Shown one piece after another: positions 3,138 through 22,628 of a stretch of 42,665 nucleotides of DNA. Under the pieces are notes generated by a model that worked only from the letters and a program-made list of their open reading frames with translations, was not told the origin of the DNA and ran no database searches. Each line of letters opens with the position of its first letter. Positions within the stretch are counted from its first letter, which is position 1. The position numbers and the translations under genes were made by a program. The stretch lies in contig JALOBR010000001.1 in the NCBI GenBank assembly GCA_023228195.1, positions 1-42,665 of the forward strand, written 5' to 3'. This DNA is from Candidatus Omnitrophota bacterium. GTDB taxonomy: Bacteria; Omnitrophota; Gorgyraeia; Duberdicusellales; 4484-171.

Positions 3138-3221
3138 GCGCGAGTGGTGAAATGGCATACACTTACGTTTGAGGGGCGTATGGCGAAAGCCGTGTGGGTT
3201 CAAGTCCCACCTCGCGCACCA
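3138..3221 (+). tRNA. tRNA-Leu (anticodon GAG), class II with a long variable arm and encoded CCA
   Basis: Hand-folded cloverleaf. Acceptor GCGCGAG/CTCGCGC. 3-bp D stem GTG/CAC with GG in the loop. Anticodon stem TACGT/GCGTA with loop TTGAGGG (U33, GAG, G37). Variable arm GGC-GAAA-GCC. T arm GTGGG-TTCAAGT-CCCAC. Discriminator A plus CCA. Confidence 0.9.
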
Positions 3222-4375: not shown

Positions 4376-5173
4376 CTAAACCTTTTCGAGCATATTTTTC
4401 GACACACCTATATCCGCAACATATATTTTACCGCAAAGCTTGGGGCCGCTATTTGATAAGAACCCTTTTTTAGGGGCGATAAAGGTGATTGTATAATCTG
4501 CTTTTATCGCTTCTCCCAATATAGCTCCGGAGTCCGGGGACAGCCCTGAAGGGACATCGCATGAGACTATCTTTTTACCGCTTTCATTTATCTCGCTTAT
4601 TATTTTTTTAAGAAAATCCGAAATTCCGCCTTTTGCGCCTATACCCAATATGCCGTCTAAAACAAAATCTGAGGCCTTGAGGTATTTTTTAAGCTTTTTT
4701 ATATTACCAAGGTTAATCGCGCATACAGGGATTTTGATTTTATCCAAAAGTTCTTTCTGGAATTTTACTTCTTCATTAAAATCTTTTTCTTCTGGGGCCC
4801 CACTGAAAAAGCCTGTGAATCCTTTTTTGTTTGCCCCTGTGGAGCGACGTCCCGTTCCTTGATTGCCCACGGGCTGTCCACCAGGACGCCCTGTTGGGCT
4901 GCCGAAGGCGTGCCCATGGAATTCCGGCGAGGGGATTAGAATCACAGCTTTTACGTTGTAATTCTTAGCGGCAAGTTTTCTTGCGCAGGCAAGCGCATCC
5001 GCTCCGTTATTACCCTTGCCTGCCACCACGCATACCTTTTTCCCCAGATTCAAATTATCTATTATGGACGCTAAATTGCTGGAAGCATTTTCTATAAGAA
5101 TTCTTTCGGTAAGGCCAATTTTTTTAGCAGCATGCTCAAGCTTTCTTATTTTTTCTACACTTAAGGCTTTCAT
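4376..5173 (-). CDS. nnrE: NAD(P)H-hydrate epimerase (YjeF N-terminal domain family) with a repeat-encoded insertion
   Basis: VCVVAGKGNNGADALACARKL motif. C-terminal DVPSGL. An extra Gly/Pro-rich segment of about 45 aa (EFHGHAFGSPTGRPGGQPVGNQGTGRRSTGANKKGFTGFFSGAP) is encoded by a GC-rich repeat. Confidence 0.75.
   Translation of the reverse strand: MKALSVEKIRKLEHAAKKIGLTERILIENASSNLASIIDNLNLGKKVCVVAGKGNNGADALACARKLAAKNYNVKAVILIPSPEFHGHAFGSPTGRPGGQPVGNQGTGRRSTGANKKGFTGFFSGAPEEKDFNEEVKFQKELLDKIKIPVCAINLGNIKKLKKYLKASDFVLDGILGIGAKGGISDFLKKIISEINESGKKIVSCDVPSGLSPDSGAILGEAIKADYTITFIAPKKGFLSNSGPKLCGKIYVADIGVSKNMLEKV
4836..4945. repeat. GC-rich palindromic element, copy A (intragenic and in-frame in nnrE)
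   Basis: The 45-nt core CCACGGGCTGTCCACCAGGACGCCCTGTTGGGCTGCCGAAGGCGT (4867-4911) is identical to 9170-9214. The flanks CCCCTGTGGAGCGACGTCCC and GAATCA are also shared with copy B. Confidence 0.85.
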
Positions 5174-6289: not shown

Positions 6290-6348
6290 GCACAGATTAG
6301 CACAGATTTTGAAGCGGATGATCACAGATATTAATCTGTTATCTGTGT
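6290..6348. repeat. Mini-element: CACAGAT-word hairpin, homologous to the left arm of the 190-bp MITE-like elements
   Basis: GCACAGATTAGCACAGATTTTGAAGCGGATGATCACAGATATTAATCTGTTATCTGTG aligns with the reverse complement of 16455-16522. Confidence 0.75.
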
Positions 6349-6424: not shown

Positions 6425-7669
6425 CTATTTGTTTTTATGCAGATTATCGAGGAATTCTTTTATTTTTTTCTCTTCGCCTATGTCTTTCGGTAAATAATAT
6501 TTATTCCTTGCGCCATAATCCTGCTCAACAAAACCACCGAATGAGTGAGGATATTTATAATCTTTGGAATGCGTTTTTATATTTTTAGGCACCTCTTTGG
6601 TTTCTTCTTCTTCGATGTCCTTTTTAGCGCTATCTATTGCAAGATAAGCTGAATTTGATTTCGGTGAACCAGCGAGATAAATTGTTGCCTGGGCTAAAAT
6701 TAAATCTGATTCCGGCTTACCTATAAATTCAACGGCCTTAAAAGCGCTTGTAGCTAAGACAAGCGCGAAAGGATTTGCGTTGCCGATATCTTCACTGGCT
6801 AAAATTACAATCCGCCTTGCGATAAAACGGGGATCCTCTCCCGATTTAATCATTTTGGCAAGCCAATAAAGAGCGCTGTCAACGTCGCTTCCTCTTACTG
6901 ATTTTATAAATGCGGAAATAGTATCGTAATGATACGAATCTTTTTTATCGTAAAATATATTTTTCTGGATACTTTCACGGGCGATATTTAAATCTAAATT
7001 TATCTTCCCTGATGAGTCTTCCTTGGTGCTAAGAGCCCCTATCTCTAAAGAGCCAAGCGCTTTGCGCGCATCCCCTGCCGATAATACGGCTATGTGTTCG
7101 ATTGCCTCATCACTACAAACAATATTCATATTTCCTAGGCCATTTTCTTTATCAAGCAGGGCGCGCTTAAGAATTGTAATGATATCTTCTTTAGCTAAAG
7201 GCTTGAATTCAGCGACAATGGCACGTGAGATAAGCGATGGTATAAGGTAATAATAAGGATTATATATGGTTGCGCCGATAAGATTTATATTTGCGCTTTC
7301 GGTGTCCGGCACAAGGGACTCCTGCTGCAGCTTATTAAACCGGTGGATTTCATCTATGAATAGAATGGTTTTTCTGCCCTTATCTGCCAATATTTTTTTC
7401 GCATTAAGGATTATCTTTCTGACTTCAACGGAAGAAGTAAAAGAAGCATTCAAATATATAAAATCAGCATCTATACTTTGGGAAACAATAAGGCCAAGTG
7501 TGGTTTTTCCGCATCCGGCAGGCCCGTGGAAAATGAGCGAAGGGAGCCTCTTTGCGATAATCGCGCGCTTTAAGAGCTTCCCTTCTCCTAAAATGTGTTT
7601 CTGGCCGATAAAGTCTTCAAGTGTTTTGGGTCGTAATCGAATTGCAAGAGGCGTATCGCTTTGCAGCAT
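6425..7669 (-). CDS. rarA: Replication-associated recombination protein A (AAA+ ATPase, MgsA/RarA)
   Basis: Walker A GPAGCGKTT, Walker B ILFIDEIHRF, and the conserved C-terminal MgsA domain (DSALYWLAKM, GEDPRFIARR). Confidence 0.9.
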   Translation of the reverse strand: MLQSDTPLAIRLRPKTLEDFIGQKHILGEGKLLKRAIIAKRLPSLIFHGPAGCGKTTLGLIVSQSIDADFIYLNASFTSSVEVRKIILNAKKILADKGRKTILFIDEIHRFNKLQQESLVPDTESANINLIGATIYNPYYYLIPSLISRAIVAEFKPLAKEDIITILKRALLDKENGLGNMNIVCSDEAIEHIAVLSAGDARKALGSLEIGALSTKEDSSGKINLDLNIARESIQKNIFYDKKDSYHYDTISAFIKSVRGSDVDSALYWLAKMIKSGEDPRFIARRIVILASEDIGNANPFALVLATSAFKAVEFIGKPESDLILAQATIYLAGSPKSNSAYLAIDSAKKDIEEEETKEVPKNIKTHSKDYKYPHSFGGFVEQDYGARNKYYLPKDIGEEKKIKEFLDNLHKNK

Positions 7670-7801: not shown

Positions 7802-8192
7802 CTGTTCATTAAAAAACCCTGCCATAAGTCCGTCTCAGGCTGGTTGCATACAGTCCGTTTCTCATACAAGTGGGTGCTTCATCCTAATCGCCTCAGCGAA
7901 AGGAAATTCAGCTCCCGTGTATTAGGTGTTGGCTGTAGCACTTTAACCTGTTGACGCAACAGGCAGGGTTAATTTCCTTTTCTTACACCTTAGTATAACA
8001 TTCGCGTAGTGTTATTTCAAGGCAATCAGCCAATCTTTGTGAAAACGTTTACACGATTGTAAACATTATGCGTCCGGATAATTACCAGATCCCTTCCTCA
8101 ACCATAAAACAGGCATTTGAAACAATGGAAGGCTTCATTTTCCTTGTGCGAAACGCCTGCGGCAACTCTTGTTTTTTTCTTTATGCCCGGCA

Positions 8193-9058: not shown

Positions 9059-9237
9059 GCACCCCGTGGGGCGACGTCTCCCCAGAAATTTCCTAACCCG
9101 TATGGGAGGAAATTTCGGGGACTTTATCCCGGGAATCCTCCGGATTCCTCGGGACCGCTCCACCATTCGCCACGGGCTGTCCACCAGGACGCCCTGTTGG
9201 GCTGCCGAAGGCGTACCCGTGCTGGCAATGGGAATCA
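9059..9237. repeat. GC-rich palindromic element, copy B (intergenic, longer, with two extra hairpins)
   Basis: The core at 9170-9214 is identical to 4867-4911. Extra hairpins are CCCCAGAAATTTCC...GGAAATTTCGGGG and CCCGGGAATCC-TCC-GGATTCCTCGGG. Confidence 0.85.
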
Positions 9238-15214: not shown

Positions 15215-16318
15215 CTAAGTAAGCCAATAGCCGAGTTCTTGGAGTATCCTTGGTTTATCCTGCCAATCCCTTAAGACTGTTACCCAGATATCCAGAAAAA
15301 CTTTTTTATTGAAAATTGCTTCTATTTCCTTGCGTGCTTCTCTGCCTATTTCCTTTAAAAGTTCTCCTTTGGCTCCTATTACTATTTTTTTCTGCGATGG
15401 ACGGTTTACGTAAATGTTTACCCTCACATAGACAAATCCGGTTTTTACAAAATCTTCCGGAACGCTTGATGAAGAAAGCAAAGAATCTTCACTTTCTTCA
15501 ATTTCTTCATCTTCAACCCCTTCTTCACCGGACGTTTCCTCTGGGTTATCTTCCATTTCTTCTTCCACTTCCATCTCTTCGCTAGCCTCATACGTTTCTT
15601 CGGTTTCTTCAATCTTGCCGCCTTGGGGCATATCTTTAATTGCCCGAATTTCAACAGCTAACGAATGCGGCAATTCTTTCGCTAACACAATAAATAATTT
15701 CTCCCTTACTATATCTGCTATGCGGAACTTAAGCGGAAAATCAGTTAATGTCTTATTGTCGTAAAAAGGCACTTGCCTTGGAAGATTTTCTAAAATTACC
15801 TCACGAAGAACGTCGATATTTTTATTTAGCTTTGCCGAGATAGGAAGGTAATAAACAAGGGGGTCATTTTTAACTCCCTTATTGCTTATTATCTTTCTCC
15901 AACAGTCTATATATTCATTTAAAGCCTTCGTTCCCAAATCAAGCTTGTTTAAAACCATTATGGTCTTTATGTTTTGCTGGGTAAGAAAATCCACTATCTC
16001 AAGTTCTTCTTTCCCGAAAGTGCGCGAAATGTCAACGACGTATAGAATCAAATCGCAGCCTTCAATTGATTGCTTTGCAATTGTATTTAGCTGGGTTGCA
16101 AGATTATCTTTAAATGAATGTATGCCGGGAGTATCGACAAAAACAACCTGCGCGTCTTTTAAATTCAAAATACCCTTTATCTGATGGCGGGTAGTTTGCG
16201 GGATGGGCGAAACAATGCTTACTTTTGTTTTGAGCAACGCGTTAAGCATCGTGGACTTACCGACATTGGGCCTACCCATAATTGCCACAAAACCTGATTT
16301 GAAATTTTCGTTTGTCAT
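15215..16318 (-). CDS. era: GTPase Era with an acidic insertion of about 60 aa in the KH domain
   Basis: G1 GRPNVGKST, G3 DTPG, G4 NKLD. KH-domain residues VNRPSQKKIVIGAKG. The start was set at MTNENF (16318) because the ORF-track extension MAICVIKN lies in the MITE-like element. Confidence 0.9.
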   Translation of the reverse strand: MTNENFKSGFVAIMGRPNVGKSTMLNALLKTKVSIVSPIPQTTRHQIKGILNLKDAQVVFVDTPGIHSFKDNLATQLNTIAKQSIEGCDLILYVVDISRTFGKEELEIVDFLTQQNIKTIMVLNKLDLGTKALNEYIDCWRKIISNKGVKNDPLVYYLPISAKLNKNIDVLREVILENLPRQVPFYDNKTLTDFPLKFRIADIVREKLFIVLAKELPHSLAVEIRAIKDMPQGGKIEETEETYEASEEMEVEEEMEDNPEETSGEEGVEDEEIEESEDSLLSSSSVPEDFVKTGFVYVRVNIYVNRPSQKKIVIGAKGELLKEIGREARKEIEAIFNKKVFLDIWVTVLRDWQDKPRILQELGYWLT

Positions 16319-16329
16319 ATTTTTTATTA

Positions 16330-16522
16330 CACAGATGGCCACAGATAATAAATCACAACCCCGTTACCCTAGATAAATATATTAAGGTTCGGGGCGTCCC
16401 GCACCTTAATAATTATATATAGCCCAGCAGGCTGAAAGCCTGGTGAATAGGAAACGGGACAGATGATCGCAGATGAATTTATCTGTGCTCATCCGCTTGC
16501 AAATCTGCGCTAATCTGTGCGC
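16330..16522 (-). mobile_element. MITE-like element, copy X (about 190 bp, CACAGAT-word terminal inverted repeats)
   Basis: The ends are CACAGATGGCCACAGAT and, in reverse complement, GCGCACAGATTAGCGCAGAT. The core 16343-16468 is the reverse complement of 20149-20274 with 2 mismatches counted by eye. Confidence 0.8.
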
Positions 16523-17646
16523 TCAAAATATTCATCCAGCTGCTTAACATAATCTTCCAGCACTTTTACGCCTTTTTCAAGATTAGCTGTTTTAACCGAT
16601 TCATTCTTTATGTGGGCGTTTCCTTTTGATCCGAAACCGAAAGAAAAAGACTCAATACCTAAGTCTTTTAGGAAAGTTATGACTGTCGCGCCAAAACTTG
16701 GGGCTATTTTTCCTGTTATTTTATTTTTCTTTAAAACGCTACGTAATATTTTAATAGCCGGTAAATTTTCATCTATTTCAAGCGGAGCTTGATTGGCGAG
16801 TATCTTTATCTTGTATTTTATTTTCTGCTTCTTTATTATTTTCTCTATACTTTTAATAATTTCTTTTTCTTCCATTGCCGGAAGATATCTTATGTCTATA
16901 TCGAAAAAAGCGTAACCGGCAACTATATTCACCTTGTCTCCGCCGTTGAATCTGCCGATATTTAAAGTAGGCTTTTTTAGCAAGGCATGCGAAACAAAAG
17001 GAAATTTTCTTGTTAGAATTTCATTTAGTATAAATACTCCTTTTTCTACTGCGTTTATTCCTTCCTCCGGATATGCTCCGTGAGCTTCTTTTCCGAAAAG
17101 TTCGACTCTTAAATGCAGAAGCCCCTTTTGAGCGACAATAATATCAAACTCATCACTATCAAGAACTACCCCGTAGTCCGCTCCTTTTAGATATTTAGCA
17201 AGCGGGATTATGCCATTGTGGCTGCCGGTTTCTTCGTCACCGGTAAAGGCAAAGATTAAATCAATATTTTTAAGGGTTATTTTTTTCTCTTTTAACTTTT
17301 TTATAAGATAAAGGGCGGCTGCCACATTAACTTTGCAATCCGTTGCCCCGCGGCCGTATATTTTACCTTTATATACTTTTGCCGAAAACGGAGGTATGCG
17401 CCAAGCGCCGGTTGCCGGCACTGTATCTACGTGGGGAGTGAATAGAATTTTTTTCTTTGAATTTCGTGAAGTTAGCTTACAGACTAAATTAGGCCTGTTT
17501 TTTTTAAATTCATAAATTTTAGAAGCAACACCCAAGCCTTTAAGGTAATTTTGGATAAAACGAATTATCTCTTTTTCATTACCCGGAGGATTTTGCGAAT
17601 CTATTTTAATTAGCTTTTGAAGCAAATTTATCGGGCTCTGTTTCAT
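16510..17646 (-). CDS. M20 family metallopeptidase (ArgE/DapE-like deacylase)
   Basis: LIKIDSQNPPGNE, FTPHVDTVP, GRGATDCK, FTGDEETGS. The last 3 codons and the stop lie in MITE copy X. Confidence 0.8.
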   Translation of the reverse strand: MKQSPINLLQKLIKIDSQNPPGNEKEIIRFIQNYLKGLGVASKIYEFKKNRPNLVCKLTSRNSKKKILFTPHVDTVPATGAWRIPPFSAKVYKGKIYGRGATDCKVNVAAALYLIKKLKEKKITLKNIDLIFAFTGDEETGSHNGIIPLAKYLKGADYGVVLDSDEFDIIVAQKGLLHLRVELFGKEAHGAYPEEGINAVEKGVFILNEILTRKFPFVSHALLKKPTLNIGRFNGGDKVNIVAGYAFFDIDIRYLPAMEEKEIIKSIEKIIKKQKIKYKIKILANQAPLEIDENLPAIKILRSVLKKNKITGKIAPSFGATVITFLKDLGIESFSFGFGSKGNAHIKNESVKTANLEKGVKVLEDYVKQLDEYFERTD

Positions 17647-19594
17647 ATATTTCCTTTAAAGATAAACTTAAATATTCTCCTTTTAATGGATTATACCCTA
17701 AATAAGCAATAAGAAAATAGGCCGAAGAAGAAAGGGAGCCCGTCCTGTCTCCGCTTGGAGTGCGCCATCCATGGCCGGTATCAACTTGCGCGCTTGATGC
17801 ATAAGGAAGGCACGGGTCTTCCACGCCTATTTTTGAGGCAGATGTAATAAGCATCTTCTGAAGCTCATCGGAATAAAAAACAGATTTATTTAAGTACTCC
17901 CTGGATTTACCGGGATCTTTCGCTTTATAATAGTCTGCCATTATTTCGAAAGAAAGGATCATTTGCGCTGTCCATTCGCAAGATACGATCCCGCCGCGCG
18001 CGCAATTCCTGAATTTAGCGAAATCGAAACCTCTCACAAAAACCTCCCCCTCTTTGCGCTTAAAACTGACGGATACCTCGCAATTTTCAACTGCAAATTC
18101 GAGTATCCTTTCCGGATTCATCTTCAAAGATATCAGCTCTTCCACGCCAAAAGCCGTAACCGACCAGGCATACGTATCGGTTGCTATCGTGCTGTCGCCT
18201 TTGCCCCTGTTAACCGGCGGGCCATAACTTGTGTATGCATATTTTAAAATCCATTTTTTTATTTTTTCTGCCGCATCACGGTATTTGTCCTGTTTGGTTA
18301 TTTTATAAAAAGAATCAAAGAAAGCAAAAGCATCAAGATTGTGCTCCGTAGCATACCACTCAACTGTCGGGCCTCCCTTTATCCCGCCCTCTTTATCCAT
18401 CATCGCTAAAAGAAAATCGGAAACCTTCTCAGCTACGGGAAGGTATTTTGCGCTTTTGGTTTCTTTATAATAATCTAAAACGGCGATACCGAGCCAGGCG
18501 TTCGGCCCGCTATGAGCGACATATTCTGCGCAATCGCCCTGGGTATAATACGCATTGTATATATTTTCTCCTTTGTTTACTTTTTTTAGATAAAAATCAA
18601 AAATCTTTTCAGCTCGCTCCCTGTCGTTTAAGATAACAAAGGTAATTGCGGCAAGCGCCTGGTCATAGGTAAAACTCATCTTTTTAAGGCTTTCGTCGCC
18701 TTCATAGCTTAAGACAAGGCCGCTTACCAAATCCTGGCGGTTTTTTATCCAGGAATATACACCTTTTATTATTTTGTCTTCCGCGCGTATTTTTGCGCGC
18801 CCCAAATCTTTGAATTCTTTTTTTAAGCCTACGGTTGTTTCATTGTATTCTTTTTGTTTTACCTTTAAAAAGTCGCTTTCTTTGCGTAAGATCTCAATTT
18901 CTTTTTTTATAGAATTTATTTTCTCACTAAGCAAGCCTGAACCGTTACTTTCAACTTTCGCATAGTCTTTCAGCTGAGTTTCCAGCAAGGTTATCTTTTC
19001 GCTTAAGTTATTCCGGATTTCATTGAAAGACGCGTTTTTATTTTTTTCTTCATCGATAAATTCTTTAAGGCCGCTGCTACGGTCTAAAATATTAACATAA
19101 CTTTTAACCAGGGACCTGTTTTCAACTGTAAGCATATGGGACTTCAAAAAGAAGGCTGCCGCGAAAAGAAAAAGCGTAACCATTGCCCCTGTCGCGGCCA
19201 AAGGTGTAAATTTATGAAATAATGCGTAATGGAAAAGTTTTTTAGCGTCTTGCTCTTTTGCGAATAACTGAAGACCTATTACATATCGATAGAAATCTTT
19301 TTGTTTCTCCTGGGAAGCCCAAGCCACCTTTGCGGATGACTCTATTACGTCTTTCTTAAATGGTATGTTTATATGCAGCAATAATTTGGCGTCTCTGGTT
19401 TTAAGCTTATCCCAGAAACCCCACCATAGGTCATTTATCAAAAGGCACAAACCGCCACGGCCGATATCATGAGTGAATCCCTGCAGCCAGGGGGTTATTC
19501 GTTTATTTTCTTCATCAACAATGCAAAATTCAATCGGCACAACGGTTGAAATTCTTATATACTTTCTTCTGTTATCCATATTTTTTGTACACAA
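17606..19594 (-). CDS. PilZ domain - TM helix - coiled coil - large (alpha/alpha)-toroid-like extracytoplasmic domain protein
   Basis: PilZ motifs RRKYIR and DIGRGG. TM helix LAATGAMVTLFLFAAAFFL. Heptad-rich residues 160-280. The C-terminal about 370 aa have repeated helical-hairpin signatures (TYDQALAAITF, NAWLGIAVLDYY, EHNLDAFAFF, TYAWSVTAF, SSSAYFLIAYLG). Confidence 0.6.
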   Translation of the reverse strand: MCTKNMDNRRKYIRISTVVPIEFCIVDEENKRITPWLQGFTHDIGRGGLCLLINDLWWGFWDKLKTRDAKLLLHINIPFKKDVIESSAKVAWASQEKQKDFYRYVIGLQLFAKEQDAKKLFHYALFHKFTPLAATGAMVTLFLFAAAFFLKSHMLTVENRSLVKSYVNILDRSSGLKEFIDEEKNKNASFNEIRNNLSEKITLLETQLKDYAKVESNGSGLLSEKINSIKKEIEILRKESDFLKVKQKEYNETTVGLKKEFKDLGRAKIRAEDKIIKGVYSWIKNRQDLVSGLVLSYEGDESLKKMSFTYDQALAAITFVILNDRERAEKIFDFYLKKVNKGENIYNAYYTQGDCAEYVAHSGPNAWLGIAVLDYYKETKSAKYLPVAEKVSDFLLAMMDKEGGIKGGPTVEWYATEHNLDAFAFFDSFYKITKQDKYRDAAEKIKKWILKYAYTSYGPPVNRGKGDSTIATDTYAWSVTAFGVEELISLKMNPERILEFAVENCEVSVSFKRKEGEVFVRGFDFAKFRNCARGGIVSCEWTAQMILSFEIMADYYKAKDPGKSREYLNKSVFYSDELQKMLITSASKIGVEDPCLPYASSAQVDTGHGWRTPSGDRTGSLSSSAYFLIAYLGYNPLKGEYLSLSLKEIYETEPDKFASKAN

Positions 19595-19599
19595 ATTAC

Positions 19600-19657
19600 C
19601 ACGAATTTGAAACGAATTTACACGAATAACCTGTTCTCCTATTCGTGGAAATTCGTG
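19600..19657. repeat. Twin-word palindrome (CACGAAT words) just upstream of the PilZ-toroid gene
   Basis: CACGAAT..ACGAAT..CACGAAT is followed by ATTCGTG-GAA-ATTCGTG. Confidence 0.8.
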
Positions 19658-19711
19658 TTCTAAACTTTATATAACAGATTTTTTGCGAATATGCAAATTT
19701 GATTGGATGGA

Positions 19712-20080
19712 CTATTTAAGTTTTTTAATTTTATTCAGAAATGCGCTGAATTTCTGATGCTTTCTTAAGTTTTCAAGATCCGGGTCTTCAAGTATATAGG
19801 AAAAATCGTCATAACCGAAAAGAATTGCCTTCTTAAGCTCTTTGAATGCCTCCTCTGTTTCCCCCATAAGAGAAAGGCTACAGGCAAAATTATAGCGGGC
19901 AACAGGGTCTTCCGGCTTGAGGTTTACGAGTCTCCTGTCGACTTCAAGGCCTTCCTGGTAAAAACCTTTTCTCGTGTATGCATCACCGAGAGTAGCGAGC
20001 GCGTGGAAAAAATTAGGGTTTTTCGAAAGCAGGCCTTCGTAAAATCTTATTTCAAAATCTTTTCTTTTTCTCTTTGCCAT
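19712..20080 (-). CDS. Small TPR-repeat protein
   Basis: TPR-like helices (ALATLGDAYTRKGFYQEGLEV, ARYNFACSLSLMGETEEAFKEL). The start was placed at MAKRKRK (20080). M at 20095 is an alternative, and the MAIC extension lies in MITE copy Y. Confidence 0.7.
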   Translation of the reverse strand: MAKRKRKDFEIRFYEGLLSKNPNFFHALATLGDAYTRKGFYQEGLEVDRRLVNLKPEDPVARYNFACSLSLMGETEEAFKELKKAILFGYDDFSYILEDPDLENLRKHQKFSAFLNKIKKLK

Positions 20081-20096
20081 GTCGCTTCGCCCCATT

Positions 20097-20287
20097 GCAC
20101 AGATGGCCACAGATTTAAAAGCGAATAATCGCAGGCGATTCCATCTGTGATCATCTGTTCCGTTTCCTATTCACCAGGCTTTCAGCCTGCTGGGCTATAT
20201 ATAATTATTAAGGTGCGGGACGCCCCGAACCTTAATATATTTATCTAGGATAACGGGGTTGTGATTTATTATCTATGACTATCTGTG
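20097..20287 (+). mobile_element. MITE-like element, copy Y (about 190 bp), inverted relative to copy X
   Basis: GCACAGATGGCCACAGAT ... ATCTATGACTATCTGTG ends. Internal hairpins are CCAGGCT-TTC-AGCCTG and TTAAGGT...ACCTTAA. The core is near-identical to copy X. Confidence 0.8.
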
Positions 20288-22628
20288 ATTTTTCCAAAAT
20301 AGCTTCTTCCTTTAAAAGATAAAATATCTCTTCCATGTTTTTCTTAAATTCCTTATATTCTGCCGGCTCGATAAATCTTTTAATTACATCAAATTCCCTG
20401 TATATCTCTATTGAATTTTTATTTTGGCTGCATATTGATTTGAACTTAAACCAGGGGGTAATTATCTCTTTGGAGGTTGGAAGAAATTTTACCTGTAAGT
20501 TTGCGGGTAAGTTTATTTTTATTTTTGATGCTTTTTTAAATATTCCTTCAAACTCTATCGGAAAATTCCTTTGTTCCTTACCCGCGTAAGAAGTATCTAT
20601 GTCTATGTCGTCAAAAAATGGAAGTATTCTTAAGCCGTCCGCGGGATTTAAAACTTTTTTGGCGCTGAATGAATACTGCAAAAATGAATCCTTATCAAAA
20701 TCGTCCACGTTGCCCGGATTATATTCTATGAGCTTGGAAAACGGGCTTATCTGAACCATTCTTTTTTGTATGTCATTTTTTAAAACATCCGGATGAGTAT
20801 ATTTTAAATAGTAACGCTGAAAACTCGCGAAAAAACCTGTGCCGGTTACTTTTCTGTTGATTACGGCGTCTTCGTTACTGTCGATATCTACTTGCATCTC
20901 ATAAAGCACGCTATTTGCGTCCAATGCCGGAGTTGTAACGATTTCATATTTATCGTCCAAAAATACAATGACATTTCTCTCCTGGTCATCAAGCGGAATA
21001 TCCGAAAAACTGACAGTTGAAGCTGTCGCGTCCATAAAAATCATTTTTCCTTCGTAGGAAAGCGCGGCTATTGCGTGGTTAAAATTAACGCAGGGAAAAT
21101 CTTTTTGCATTTGATAAATTCCCCTTGTCGGAATAAGCACAGGATAAGCTTTAAGGCCCACTTCTTTCATCATCGCAACTAAAAGTATGGCCTTATCTTT
21201 GCAATCTCCGTAACGGTTTACGAAAATATCGTTTGCATAATGCGGCTCAAAACCGCTTTCGCCATATTCTACGGCAACGTAGCGCACGTTACGGGAACAA
21301 AAATCATATATTTTTTTTGCCTTTTCCAGGTCATCTTTCGCGTCTTTTATGAGGTTTGCCGTAAATTCTTTTACTTCTTTATTCAGCACTATTTTGTCCT
21401 TATAAAGACCGTGCCACCATTTATAAATTTCTTCCCAACTTGAAAAATTAGATATACCAATCGCCGGGTTAATAATGGAAATCGAAGGCATCGGCTCTTC
21501 CGGAATAATCGGACCTATCTCTTTAAACTTCCATAAATAGCTGATAGATTTTTCTGTTTCTTCTTTTGCCGGGTTTAAATTTATTCCTTTAGAGTATGTT
21601 TCATTGAAAAATTTTAACTCTACTTTGTTTTTCCTGGGTACGGTAAGGGTAAAATTAGCCCGGGCAATAGGGAAAGCTTCCCGCAGACGATATATAAAAC
21701 TGAACTTTCCGTCAGTGATTAGTTTCGAAGAATAAATTTTTAATTTATATTCGATGATAGAGCCGACATCCACCGAAGGCATGGAAATTATAAGAGCCCT
21801 GGCGTTACTATAAAGAGGGAAATTAAGGTATTTGGTAACATCCCTTGTATTCTCAGCCCCGGCATAAACTACCCGTCCGGCAGGAGTGATTGTCCGGGCA
21901 TATTCAAGTTCAACTCTTTCATAGGTTGAATCGTATCCGATTTCTACCTCTGCCAGATCCTTCCCCTTTTCTTTTAAAACTTTCTGCACCATATGAACGT
22001 CCGCCACAGAGGTATTATCATCATTTATCCGGTGGTCTTCATCCACAAGCAAAACCACCGCTTCTTCCTTATCGATACTTTCAAGAAACTTTTGCTCTTC
22101 CTGGAGAAGGGTATTTAAAAATTGCGGCATACCCTCTTCCACCTTAAGTCCTATTTTTAAAATACGCTGTTTTGCTTGCGGCTGAAATTCACCGTTAACC
22201 TTTCTGTAAATTGCAATAGCCTTAGGGTAAAGATTCTTCGACTCAAGAGTCGTCGCGTATAAATACATATACTCGCCATCTTCGATTTCTCCAACCTGAT
22301 CAAAAACATTCAAAGCGCTGGAATATTCTTTAAGATTTGCGTACGCCTTAGCAAGCATGATTTTTGCTTTTACATCGGTTTCGTTTTTAAGCAACGCTAC
22401 AGCTTTTTCAAAATCCTTGAAATCATAATAAATTTGCGCAAGCTTTATGCGTAAATTCAGATCTTTCGGATTTTTGTTTATAAGCTCTTCGTAATGCCTG
22501 GTTTCTTCGCTGTAAATTTCATGCAATTTTTCAGATTCATATTTACAGCCGCAAAGAAAAATGAATAAAAATACCCACGGCACCAGGGAATGGGTTAGGA
22601 GGGAAGTTTTTTTTGTTATTATTTTCAT
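20241..22628 (-). CDS. TPR + DUF3857-like + transglutaminase-core + DUF3858-like protein
   Basis: Signal/lipobox-like N-terminus (FLCGC). TPR-like helices. Transglutaminase Cys motif YGDCKDKAILLVAMM, followed by HAIAAL and MDAT. The last 15 codons lie in MITE copy Y. Confidence 0.7.
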   Translation of the reverse strand: MKIITKKTSLLTHSLVPWVFLFIFLCGCKYESEKLHEIYSEETRHYEELINKNPKDLNLRIKLAQIYYDFKDFEKAVALLKNETDVKAKIMLAKAYANLKEYSSALNVFDQVGEIEDGEYMYLYATTLESKNLYPKAIAIYRKVNGEFQPQAKQRILKIGLKVEEGMPQFLNTLLQEEQKFLESIDKEEAVVLLVDEDHRINDDNTSVADVHMVQKVLKEKGKDLAEVEIGYDSTYERVELEYARTITPAGRVVYAGAENTRDVTKYLNFPLYSNARALIISMPSVDVGSIIEYKLKIYSSKLITDGKFSFIYRLREAFPIARANFTLTVPRKNKVELKFFNETYSKGINLNPAKEETEKSISYLWKFKEIGPIIPEEPMPSISIINPAIGISNFSSWEEIYKWWHGLYKDKIVLNKEVKEFTANLIKDAKDDLEKAKKIYDFCSRNVRYVAVEYGESGFEPHYANDIFVNRYGDCKDKAILLVAMMKEVGLKAYPVLIPTRGIYQMQKDFPCVNFNHAIAALSYEGKMIFMDATASTVSFSDIPLDDQERNVIVFLDDKYEIVTTPALDANSVLYEMQVDIDSNEDAVINRKVTGTGFFASFQRYYLKYTHPDVLKNDIQKRMVQISPFSKLIEYNPGNVDDFDKDSFLQYSFSAKKVLNPADGLRILPFFDDIDIDTSYAGKEQRNFPIEFEGIFKKASKIKINLPANLQVKFLPTSKEIITPWFKFKSICSQNKNSIEIYREFDVIKRFIEPAEYKEFKKNMEEIFYLLKEEAILEKSQIVIDNKSQPRYPR

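What the first reader, a model, noticed from the sequence alone, without database searches (positions are those of the whole stretch)
16330..20287. 3.7-kb three-gene cassette bracketed by near-identical 190-bp MITE-like elements in inverted orientation
Element X (16330-16522) and element Y (20097-20287) are reverse complements of each other. Their 126-nt cores (16343-16468 and 20149-20274) differ at only 2 positions by my count. Each element has CACAGAT-word terminal inverted repeats and internal hairpins. Together they bracket the M20 peptidase, the PilZ-TM-toroid protein and a TPR protein. Inverted repeats this similar can drive segment inversion by homologous recombination, or they may mark a composite mobilised unit. 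Such high identity implies recent transposition or gene conversion.
Basis: seen in the sequence. Interest (0 to 1): 0.62.

Follow-up and report, generated by a model that had tools for sequence, protein, structure and literature searches.

The report
Two hairpin repeats flank conserved genes
The two inverted 190-base repeats are real, but they are two copies of a common gene-less hairpin repeat lodged in neighbouring gaps of an old, conserved operon of an uncultivated Omnitrophota bacterium, so the three genes between them are not a mobile or flip-flop cassette.

Summary
X (16330-16519) and Y (20098-20287) are inverted copies, 170/191 identical, with a 126-nt tract that differs at 2 bases.

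- Four relatives, with PilZ 56-94% identical, keep transglutaminase-TPR-PilZ-M20 in the same order and strand, and two also show era next. In a complete genome the Y junction is a 4-nt gene overlap.
- The three genes are therefore ancestral. They were neither mobilised nor inverted.

X and Y belong to a dispersed family of about 86-nt foldback elements.
- The arms are CACAGAT words spaced 10 nt apart.
- I collected about 30 distinct copies from Omnitrophota assemblies. The window holds a third copy at 6291-6347 and a CACGAAT-word relative at 19590-19657.
- The same 31-nt arm also occurs in four other phyla.

What makes X and Y look near-identical is a roughly 105-nt hairpin module nested at the same internal position in both.
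- The host arms are only 71% identical, against 98% for the module tract (p = 2e-8).
- A 93%-identical strain has a module-less element at the Y site.
- The module was therefore copied recently. I favour gene conversion between X and Y.

No transposase or recombinase is present in the window.

The parts
16330..16519 (-). Element X: a CACAGAT-word foldback element, canonical orientation on the minus strand, i.e. sense in the operon mRNA. It lies between the M20 stop and the era start.
   Evidence: model R1, 45 bits; fold z = -5.5. It is identical apart from flanking SNPs in independent assemblies L001 and L046.
16330..16353 (-). X short arm: two words with 10-nt spacing plus the spacer AATAAAT. 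It ends 11 nt before the era ATG.
16354..16458 (-). X nested module: closing stem CCCCGTTACC / GGAAACGGG around hairpin 1 (16369-16422) and hairpin 2 (16423-16446). It sits between the 4th and 5th reverse words of the host element.
   Evidence: (I3). It is absent from canonical copies.
16459..16519 (-). X long arm: words W1, W2, the GCGGAT word and the central hairpin. W1 and the W1-W2 spacer encode the last two codons and the TAG of M20 (..RTD*).
   Evidence: Metagenome contig depth is 30-51 here against about 6 in the flanks.
20098..20287 (+). Element Y: the same family, canonical orientation on the plus strand, i.e. antisense in the operon mRNA. It lies between the transglutaminase-like gene and the TPR start.
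   Evidence: 39.7 bits; fold z = -6.9
20159..20263 (+). Y nested module, the reverse complement of the X module. The near-identical tract runs 20149-20274.
   Evidence: It is missing at this site in strain L003. It is present in metagenome runs X1, X2 and X3.
20241..20287 (-). The last 15 codons and the stop of the transglutaminase-like gene, read out of element Y.
   Evidence: the tail after the conserved ..LLKEEAILEK differs in every relative (SQIVIDNKSQPRYPR*, SQTITDGKADSHR*, QTD*, YTDNHR*).
6291..6347 (+). Element Z: a truncated CACAGAT element without the module, 8 nt upstream of a minus-strand gene start.
   Evidence: 42 bits. An identical copy lies at the orthologous site in relatives L011 and L055.
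19590..19657 (+). CACGAAT-word element of the same architecture, in the TPR-PilZ gap, i.e. inside the supposed cassette.
   Evidence: (29 bits, E = 2e-5). The gap varies between strains (joints 19580/19584 to 19644-19661).
15215..16318 (-). era GTPase gene, downstream of X.
16510..17646 (-). M20 peptidase gene.
17606..19594 (-). PilZ-domain protein gene, a gene with more than 1000 Omnitrophota homologues.
19712..20080 (-). Small TPR protein gene.
20241..22628 (-). Gene for a transglutaminase-like DUF3857/DUF3858 protein, upstream of Y.

Best explanation
X and Y are two resident copies of a dispersed, gene-less foldback repeat of Omnitrophota. The canonical unit is about 86 nt and consists of four heptamer words (CACAGAT, CACAGAT, GCGGAT, CACAGAT; start-to-start spacings 10, 12-13 and 10 nt), a 6-nt loop, and the four words mirrored. 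Each copy lodged long ago in its own gene junction of a conserved co-directional operon: transglutaminase-like, TPR, PilZ, M20, era. These genes abut or overlap in relatives. The upstream genes now read into the repeats to find their stop codons. Later, a second, smaller hairpin module of about 105 nt (CCCGTTWCC closing stem, two inner hairpins) nested into one reverse word of one copy. It was then copied into the other copy. The most likely route is non-reciprocal homologous recombination (gene conversion) primed by the conserved word arms, and this created the 126-nt, 98%-identical tract. The three genes between X and Y are ordinary ancestral genes, and the 'bracketing' is a by-product of repeat density. 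In the polycistronic mRNA each element should fold into a long local hairpin, as REP and Correia elements do; a role in RNA processing or stability is inferred, not shown. Shown here: the family, its architecture, the nesting, strain polymorphism, conserved synteny and unequal divergence. Inferred: conversion rather than a second insertion, the mobilising enzyme (unknown), and any RNA-level effect.
For: Family and architecture:
- An exact 31-nt arm pattern finds 20 genome loci and 29 metagenome loci.
- Fifteen canonical 83-86-nt copies align at 88% column identity and fold as one long hairpin.
- Covariance model R1 finds X, Y, Z and the CACGAAT element in the window and many copies in the loci.
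- Metagenome contig depth is 4-8 times the flank depth over the arms, with many different flanks.

Nesting:
- Canonical copies read ..ATCATCTGTG|ATTTnnn.. exactly where X and Y hold the module.
- Strain L003 (92-95% DNA identity) has a module-less element at the Y site.
- Shorter relatives of the module sit in at least 6 other contexts in four metagenomes, always after ..CTGT and before CTG.

Conversion:
- Mismatches are 19/65 in the arms against 2/126 in the tract (Fisher p = 2e-8).
- The tract includes the family-variable spacer ATTTATT and the same imperfect flank TTGT in both copies.
- The last 16 nt of Y's long arm match X at 15/16 but the orthologous L003 element at only 12/16.
- The full module occurs nowhere else in 385 kb of related loci.

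Ancestral genes:
- The same gene order and strand are seen in L024, L026, L025, L003 and the complete genome CP070797.1, where transglutaminase and TPR overlap by 4 nt.
- The same two gaps already hold CACAGAT elements or remnants in L026. There the M20 tail ..HTD* is also encoded by a word.

Incidental bracketing: locus L053 has another inverted pair 2.2 kb apart around ordinary genes, and L037 has a direct pair 4 kb apart.

No mobilising gene: no transposase, integrase or invertase domain was found in 35 window ORFs.
Against: - No clean empty site or target-site duplication was found. The X-less allele in metagenomes has 36-37 unrelated nt in place of X. TA flanks one end often (16/30 and 12/30) but both ends in only 4/30. 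Transposition of the host element is therefore not demonstrated.
- Conversion versus two targeted insertions of the module is not settled. Module relatives do recur at the same kind of position in other host elements.
- Words are conserved as sequence, with almost no compensatory changes (1 of 25 pairs). They are conserved even across phyla. That would also fit a protein-binding function.
- No RNA data exist for this organism.
Confidence: 0.7

Rival explanations
1. Invertible segment. Homologous recombination between X and Y flips M20-PilZ-TPR, giving orientation heterogeneity, possibly with a regulatory (phase-variation) effect.
For: The inverted repeats have a 90-nt identical run and 124/126 identity. 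That is enough for RecA-dependent recombination, from general knowledge of minimal homology lengths. A micro-scale precedent was seen: the 12-nt loop of the CACAGAT palindrome is flipped in one Saprospiraceae copy.
Against: All assemblies that span a junction show the reference arrangement. These are the window, L001 and L046 across X, and L003 across the Y site. The orientation equals the ancestral one in four relatives. Inversion would put three operon genes antisense to their transcript. No site-specific recombinase is in the window. No strand-switching joint between the two elements appeared in four metagenomes, but the contigs are too short to span the identical tract, so that test has no power.
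Confidence: 0.06
2. Composite mobile unit. X and Y act as the two ends of a transposon that carried M20, PilZ and TPR to this place.
For: Only the geometry: inverted MITE-like repeats at both ends.
Against: The three genes and their neighbours are syntenic and co-oriented in relatives from 94% down to 56% PilZ identity, including a complete genome with no spacer at the Y junction. PilZ overlaps M20, as in the relatives. The arms that would be the transposon ends are the most diverged parts. There is no duplication flanking the unit.
Confidence: 0.02
3. The module is itself a small mobile element that inserted independently, and recently, into X and into Y by targeting an ATCTGTG word and duplicating CTGT. 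There was no gene conversion between X and Y.
For: Relatives of the module (CCCGTTTC - hairpin 1 - GGTAACGGGG) lie in at least 6 other host contexts, always after ..CTGT and before CTG(TG). One of these hosts appears to use a different (GCGGGT-type) word. Depth over hairpin 1 is 5-10 times the flank depth.
Against: Both copies share the same imperfect right flank (TTGT, not CTGT) and the same variable host spacer (ATTTATT). They also share hairpin 2, which the other contexts lack, and no third full copy was found in 385 kb. Two independent insertions would also have to land at the same word and in the same orientation of two elements only 3.6 kb apart.
Confidence: 0.2
4. Functional cis-element. 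The phased words are binding sites of a conserved DNA-binding protein. Alternatively, X and Y, being complementary within one transcript, pair over about 126 nt and mark the three-gene RNA segment for RNase III processing.
For: Words are conserved as sequence with 10-nt phasing, even across five phyla. Elements sit within about 25 nt of start codons. X is sense and Y antisense in the same predicted transcript.
Against: Presence, absence and content vary between close strains at the same site. Neighbouring genes are unrelated housekeeping genes, so there is no apparent regulon. The elements occur in both orientations. Local folding of each palindrome is strongly favoured. There are no Rfam matches and no promoter or terminator signal within the elements.
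Confidence: 0.08

Closest known systems
Correia repeat-enclosed elements (CREE/NEMIS) of Neisseria and similar bacterial MITEs such as Nezha, Chunjie and ERIC (from general knowledge; reviews PMC3184786, PMC10969869 were listed but not read)
   Same: They are 100-200 nt long, gene-less and palindromic with inverted ends. They are dispersed in intergenic gaps of operons, co-transcribed and strain-variable, and they sometimes donate stop codons or protein tails.
   Different: No clean TA or other target duplication was found, and no cognate transposase is known. The arms are phased heptamer words rather than a plain TIR. Sibling families keep the architecture but swap the word (CACGAAT, CGCGGAT). 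The same arm occurs in five phyla.
REP / BIME / REPIN elements of proteobacteria
   Same: Both are extragenic palindromes arranged as mosaics of modules. They form hairpins in mRNA, occur in many copies, evolve within the genome, and show nested or composite forms.
   Different: No GTAG/CGTC head is present. The units are longer, built of repeated words. RAYT presence could not be tested. Copy density looks lower.
Foldback hairpin insertions such as 23S rRNA intervening sequences; earlier notes of this scan link CACAGAT palindromes to gene-carrying forms (e1-728405, e1-1195272)
   Same: Both are long imperfect hairpins inserted into transcribed DNA with no target duplication, and some relatives are reported to carry a small ORF in the loop.
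   Different: None of my ~30 distinct copies carries an ORF, and no GxxExxY ORF exists in 385 kb of fetched loci. The link remains an untested lead here.
IS- or MITE-bounded composite transposons and recombinase-driven invertible segments (hin, fim, shufflons)
   Same: Inverted repeats on both sides of a few genes.
   Different: The cargo is ancestral and syntenic, there is no recombinase, the ends are the most diverged part, and no alternative orientation has been seen.

Membership tests
Bacterial MITE (non-autonomous DDE-transposon derivative) | Short (<300 nt), non-coding, with terminal inverted repeats | tested here: met
   Canonical units are 83-86 nt and X and Y are 190 nt. The ends CACAGATnnnCACAGAT / ATCTGTGnnnATCTGTG are inverted, and there is no ORF.
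Bacterial MITE (non-autonomous DDE-transposon derivative) | Many dispersed copies with unrelated flanks | tested here: met
   About 30 distinct copies were found in Omnitrophota assemblies, and 4 family members in the 42.7-kb window. Unitigs carry many different flanks. The own-genome count was not possible.
Bacterial MITE (non-autonomous DDE-transposon derivative) | Target-site duplication flanking each copy | tested here: inconclusive
   TA is enriched at either end (16/30 and 12/30, against 7.9% background) but lies at both ends in only 4/30. The X-less allele is a replacement, not a clean empty site.
Bacterial MITE (non-autonomous DDE-transposon derivative) | Autonomous partner IS with the same ends | not testable with these tools
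There is none in the window or among the fetched loci.
REP / REPIN | 20-40-nt imperfect palindrome with a conserved GTAG or CGTC head | tested here: not met
   The ends read CACAGAT and no such tetranucleotide head is present. The criterion comes from PMC3733652 as listed (abstract only).
REP / REPIN | RAYT (Y1 transposase) gene in the genome | not testable with these tools
There is none in the window.
Composite transposon | Cargo genes absent from, or elsewhere in, relatives; a duplication flanks the whole unit | tested here: not met
   Synteny and strand are conserved in L003, L024, L025, L026 and L056. The flanks of X and Y share no duplication.
Invertible DNA segment | Both orientations present in a population | not testable with these tools
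   Only Logan contigs were available, with no raw or long reads. Three assemblies show the reference orientation.
Invertible DNA segment | Adjacent site-specific recombinase | tested here: not met
   No recombinase or invertase domain was found in 35 window ORFs.
Cyanobacterial STRR-type heptamer repeats | Contiguous tandem heptamers (period 7) | tested here: not met
   Words start 10 nt apart with variable 3-nt spacers.
   There is no ORF-bearing copy and no GxxExxY ORF in 385 kb of fetched loci. The collections could not be searched for such copies.

The most novel reading that the evidence does not exclude
A two-tier, self-nesting system. One tier is a family of heptamer-word foldback elements whose 31-nt arm is shared across at least five bacterial phyla. 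The other is a second, smaller hairpin module that inserts specifically inside the ATCTGTG words of the first, duplicating CTGT. Both would be moved by an undescribed enzyme that recognises words or hairpins rather than by a classical transposase. Sibling families that keep the architecture but swap the word (CACAGAT, CACGAAT, CGCGGAT) would then reflect co-evolving specificities.
Probability: 0.15. Interest if true: 0.7.

Novelty: new member of a known kind. Interest (0 to 1): 0.33.

Why it matters
For this locus, the result removes a false lead. The M20-PilZ-TPR genes are core, vertically inherited genes, not cargo, and annotators should not call a transposon or invertible switch here.

More generally, it documents that compact Omnitrophota operons are being pried apart at stop/start junctions by palindromic repeats. 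These repeats rewrite C-terminal tails, nest inside one another and exchange modules. That matters for gene calling, since both era and the TPR gene acquire false N-terminal extensions. It matters for MAG assembly, since contigs break in these repeats. It also bears on how non-autonomous repeats spread without a visible transposase. The occurrence of one arm sequence in several phyla is the one feature that deserves a dedicated follow-up.

Tried and rejected
- **Whole-genome census and transposase search.** I replaced them with one pattern scan each of genome contigs and metagenome contigs and with metagenome contig depth.
- **Orientation heterogeneity.** All listed runs are Logan contigs. Unitigs break inside the identical tract, so the absence of inversion joints carries no weight.
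- **RNA evidence.** No RNA run holds the locus.
- **Rfam.** Nothing matched at gathering threshold, and only chance-level hits appeared at E <= 5.
- **Promoter and terminator scan.** Only a weak 9/12 promoter-like match overlaps the edge of Y (20297-20268, minus strand). Both classes of site are at or below shuffle expectation over the whole region.
- **Other collections.** Viral contigs gave 0 hits for the arm pattern and plasmids gave no match to the canonical unit.
- **Literature.** Two full-text searches found no description of CACAGAT-word repeats or of Omnitrophota repeats.
- **Exact-protein look-ups.** The transglutaminase-like and era proteins were not on record.
- **Gene-carrying copies.** Two screens for ORFs flanked by inverted arms and one for GxxExxY ORFs found none.
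- **TA target-site duplication.** Rejected as a clean rule.
- **Ideas considered and dropped after inspecting the sequence, with no tool test.** DnaA boxes, sigma-54 promoter (spacing off by one and present only in some spacers), Pho-box-like sites (period 10, not 11, and no regulon), and Fur, IHF and LexA sites.

Full report
**1. The observation**

- The arms are 16330-16520 and 20097-20287, 191 nt, 89% complementary, 3576 nt apart.
The 126-nt tracts differ at two transitions, at 16367 and 16458. The longest identical run is 90 nt.
- Chance is excluded. The window shares 152 20-mers with its own reverse complement, against none in shuffles. CACAGAT occurs 16 times against 2.3 expected.
- Both elements fold far better than shuffled controls, with z = -5.5 and -6.9.
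- All five surrounding genes lie on the minus strand. They are a DUF3857/transglutaminase-like protein, a small TPR protein, a PilZ protein, an M20 peptidase and Era.

**2. What X and Y are made of**

A third CACAGAT cluster lies at 6291-6347. It aligns to the long arm of X and Y but lacks the central about 105 nt.

Contig L003 comes from a strain 92-95% identical in DNA. It has the same gene order but only a short CACAGAT element at the Y site. The alignment gap falls exactly at the borders of the central block.

The 190-nt 'element' is therefore composite. It is a word-built host element with a separate hairpin module nested in it.

**3. The host element is a dispersed family**

One arm pattern matches all four copies I then knew: CACAGATNNNCRCAGATTTNNAARCGRATRA. 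I calculate about 0.004 chance hits in 596 Gb.
- It found 20 loci in species-representative genomes and 29 in JGI metagenomes.
- It found none in viral contigs.

After removing duplicates there are about 30 distinct copies. Fifteen canonical copies of 83-86 nt align at 88% column identity. The canonical unit reads:

CACAGAT nnn CACAGAT TTGTAA GCGGAT GAT CACAGAT [GATTTT] ATCTGYG ATC ATCTGTG ATTTnnn ATCTGTG ATC ATCTGTG

RNAalifold folds it as one long hairpin of 25 pairs.
- There is almost no compensatory change (1 of 25 pairs), so the words are conserved as sequence.
- Two G.U pairs (GCGGAT opposite ATCTGT) are present in 13/15 and 15/15 copies. They give the unit a polarity.

A covariance model built from these copies (R1) was then used for searching.
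- In the window it recovers X, Y, Z and a fourth element at 19590-19657, whose words are CACGAAT.
- In the loci it finds further CACAGAT copies, CACGAAT copies and a G+C-rich CGCGGAT-word family with the same layout.

Extra hairpins occur at two preferred places:
- the central loop (L027, L028, L029, L048, L051, L054);
- the spacer after the fourth reverse word (X, Y, L035, L039, L041).

**4. Position and behaviour of the copies**

Nearly all copies lie between co-directional genes. They sit within a few nt of the upstream stop and 5-25 nt before the next start. Both orientations occur in roughly equal numbers. X is sense and Y is antisense in the same operon.

Upstream ORFs run into the elements.
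- The M20 tail ..RTD* comes from word 1 plus the TAG spacer.
- The transglutaminase-like protein ends in 15 element-encoded residues.
- The tails after the conserved ..LLKEEAILEK differ in every relative.

Between strains the same gap can hold a canonical unit, a truncated unit, a unit with an extra hairpin, another word type, or no element.
- L034, L041 and L049 show this at one orthologous site.
- L003, L024, L025 and L026 show it at the two gaps studied here.
- Metagenome contigs include an X-less allele with 36-37 unrelated nt in place of X.

Contig depth over the arms is 4-8 times the flank depth, with many different flanks.

TA is enriched next to either end (16/30 and 12/30, against 7.9% background) but lies at both ends in only 4/30. 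A TA target duplication is therefore not established.

No copy carries an ORF. No transposase, integrase or invertase domain occurs in 35 window ORFs.

**5. The three genes are not cargo**

The PilZ protein has more than 1000 Omnitrophota homologues. I compared loci around four of them, at 94%, 82%, 80% and 56% identity.
- All four keep transglutaminase-like - TPR - PilZ - M20 in the same order on one strand.
- L024, L026 and L056 also show AsnC - aminotransferase - DUF1805 upstream of that block.
- L024 and L026 show era next, downstream of M20.
- In the complete genome CP070797.1 the transglutaminase-like and TPR genes overlap by 4 nt. The Y gap was therefore opened by an insertion between coupled genes.
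- L026 already has a short CACAGAT element at the Y gap and a remnant at the X gap. There the M20 tail ..HTD* is again word-encoded. The host elements are therefore older than these species splits.

This rules out a composite mobilised unit. It also shows that the present orientation is the ancestral one.

Pairs of family members a few kb apart are common in other loci too. L053 has an inverted pair 2.2 kb apart, and L037 has a direct pair 4 kb apart.

**6. Why X and Y look nearly identical**

Divergence is very uneven. There are 19 mismatches in 65 arm positions, against 2 in the 126-nt tract (p = 2e-8). A single recent transposition of the whole 190-nt unit cannot explain this.

The full module is found only at X, at Y and at X orthologues (L001, L046) in 385 kb of related loci.

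Shorter relatives of the module do occur elsewhere.
- They have the form CCCGTTTC - hairpin 1 - GGTAACGGGG, without hairpin 2.
- They occur in at least six other contexts in four metagenomes.
- They always lie after ..CTGT and before CTG(TG). This suggests a nested element that enters an ATCTGTG word.

Several features point to one insertion followed by copying between X and Y.
- X and Y share hairpin 2.
- They share the same imperfect right flank (TTGT) and the same variable host spacer (ATTTATT).
- The 16 nt of Y's long arm next to the module match X at 15/16, but the orthologous L003 element at only 12/16.

I therefore favour gene conversion across 3.6 kb, primed by the conserved arms, over two independent insertions. 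My odds are roughly 3:1.

The module-bearing Y allele is present in three metagenome runs from two studies. The module-bearing X allele is in three assemblies.

**7. Inversion**

A 90-nt identical inverted run could support RecA-mediated inversion. However, I found no evidence that it happens.
- Every assembly that spans a junction has the reference arrangement.
- Inversion would place three operon genes antisense to their transcript.
- There is no recombinase nearby.

The decisive read-level test could not be run. Only Logan unitigs were served, and they break inside the identical tract.

One small-scale flip was seen elsewhere. The 12-nt loop of the CACAGAT palindrome is inverted in one Saprospiraceae copy.

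**8. Beyond Omnitrophota**

The same 31-nt arm occurs in MAGs labelled as follows:
- Saprospiraceae, seven loci, most at contig ends;
- Pyrinomonadaceae, two MAGs;
- Phycisphaerae;
- Ignavibacteria.

These loci have 39-65% G+C. In the Saprospiraceae MAG the palindrome is the centre of a 163-nt repeat that has its own 16-nt inverted ends. I cannot explain this breadth. Horizontal spread of a mobile module and a conserved binding protein are both open.

**9. Comparison with known systems, and verdict**

The elements behave like Correia-type MITEs and REP/BIME mosaics. They fail, or could not be given, the defining tests of either family: no clean duplication, no known transposase, no GTAG/CGTC head.

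Earlier notes of this scan describe the same kind of repeat in other Omnitrophota windows. One reports gene-carrying copies (e1-728405). I treated these notes as leads. My data agree on the nesting and the strain turnover, but they contain no gene-carrying copy.

The finding as posed, a bracketed cassette, is ordinary. The repeat family underneath it is an undescribed member of a known kind, with a few unexplained features.

Noticed in passing
window 19590-19657: A CACGAAT-word element with the same architecture as the CACAGAT family fills the TPR-PilZ gap. It scores 29 bits with model R1, is identical in strain L003, and is replaced by other sequences in other strains.
   Followed up: partly
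L015:3649-3732, L022:135-218 and 6798-6880, L010:5537-5620: A G+C-rich sibling family in a related Omnitrophota MAG. It has the same layout but CGCGGAT words and TAGA/TCTA outer ends.
   Followed up: partly
L012:243-407, L018:7350-7511, L023:1083-1247 (Saprospiraceae ATF_13): A 163-nt MITE-like repeat with its own 16-nt inverted ends (GTAACTATTTAGTACC) carries a three-word CACAGAT palindrome at its centre. At least seven copies exist, most at contig ends. In L023 the 12-nt loop is flipped relative to the arms.
   Followed up: partly
window 16312-16525 (allele seen in runs X2, X3, X4): Related strains have no element X. Instead 36-37 unrelated nt lie between M20 (tail ..EIK*) and era. This is a replacement rather than a clean empty site.
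   Followed up: partly
L056:5514-5517 (CP070797.1): In a complete Omnitrophota genome the transglutaminase-like and TPR genes overlap by 4 nt, which is the likely ancestral state of the Y junction.
   Followed up: yes
window 16319-16342 and 20081-20110: The elements create in-frame false N-terminal extensions of era (GTG at 16342) and of the TPR gene (GTG at 20110). Gene callers that take the longest ORF will mis-start both.
   Followed up: partly
window 7812-7972 and 3138-3218: Rfam finds a 6S RNA (minus strand, 49 bits) and a tRNA (plus strand).
   Followed up: no
window 4852-4918 and 9155-9221: A G+C-rich 67-nt direct repeat (88% identical). One copy lies inside the YjeF_N (nnrE) coding sequence. 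This is a different repeat family from the one studied here.
   Followed up: no
L002 (JGI 3300035208), end at 1580: The contig breaks inside element X, 10 nt into the nested module, which illustrates that these repeats fragment metagenome assemblies.
   Followed up: yes
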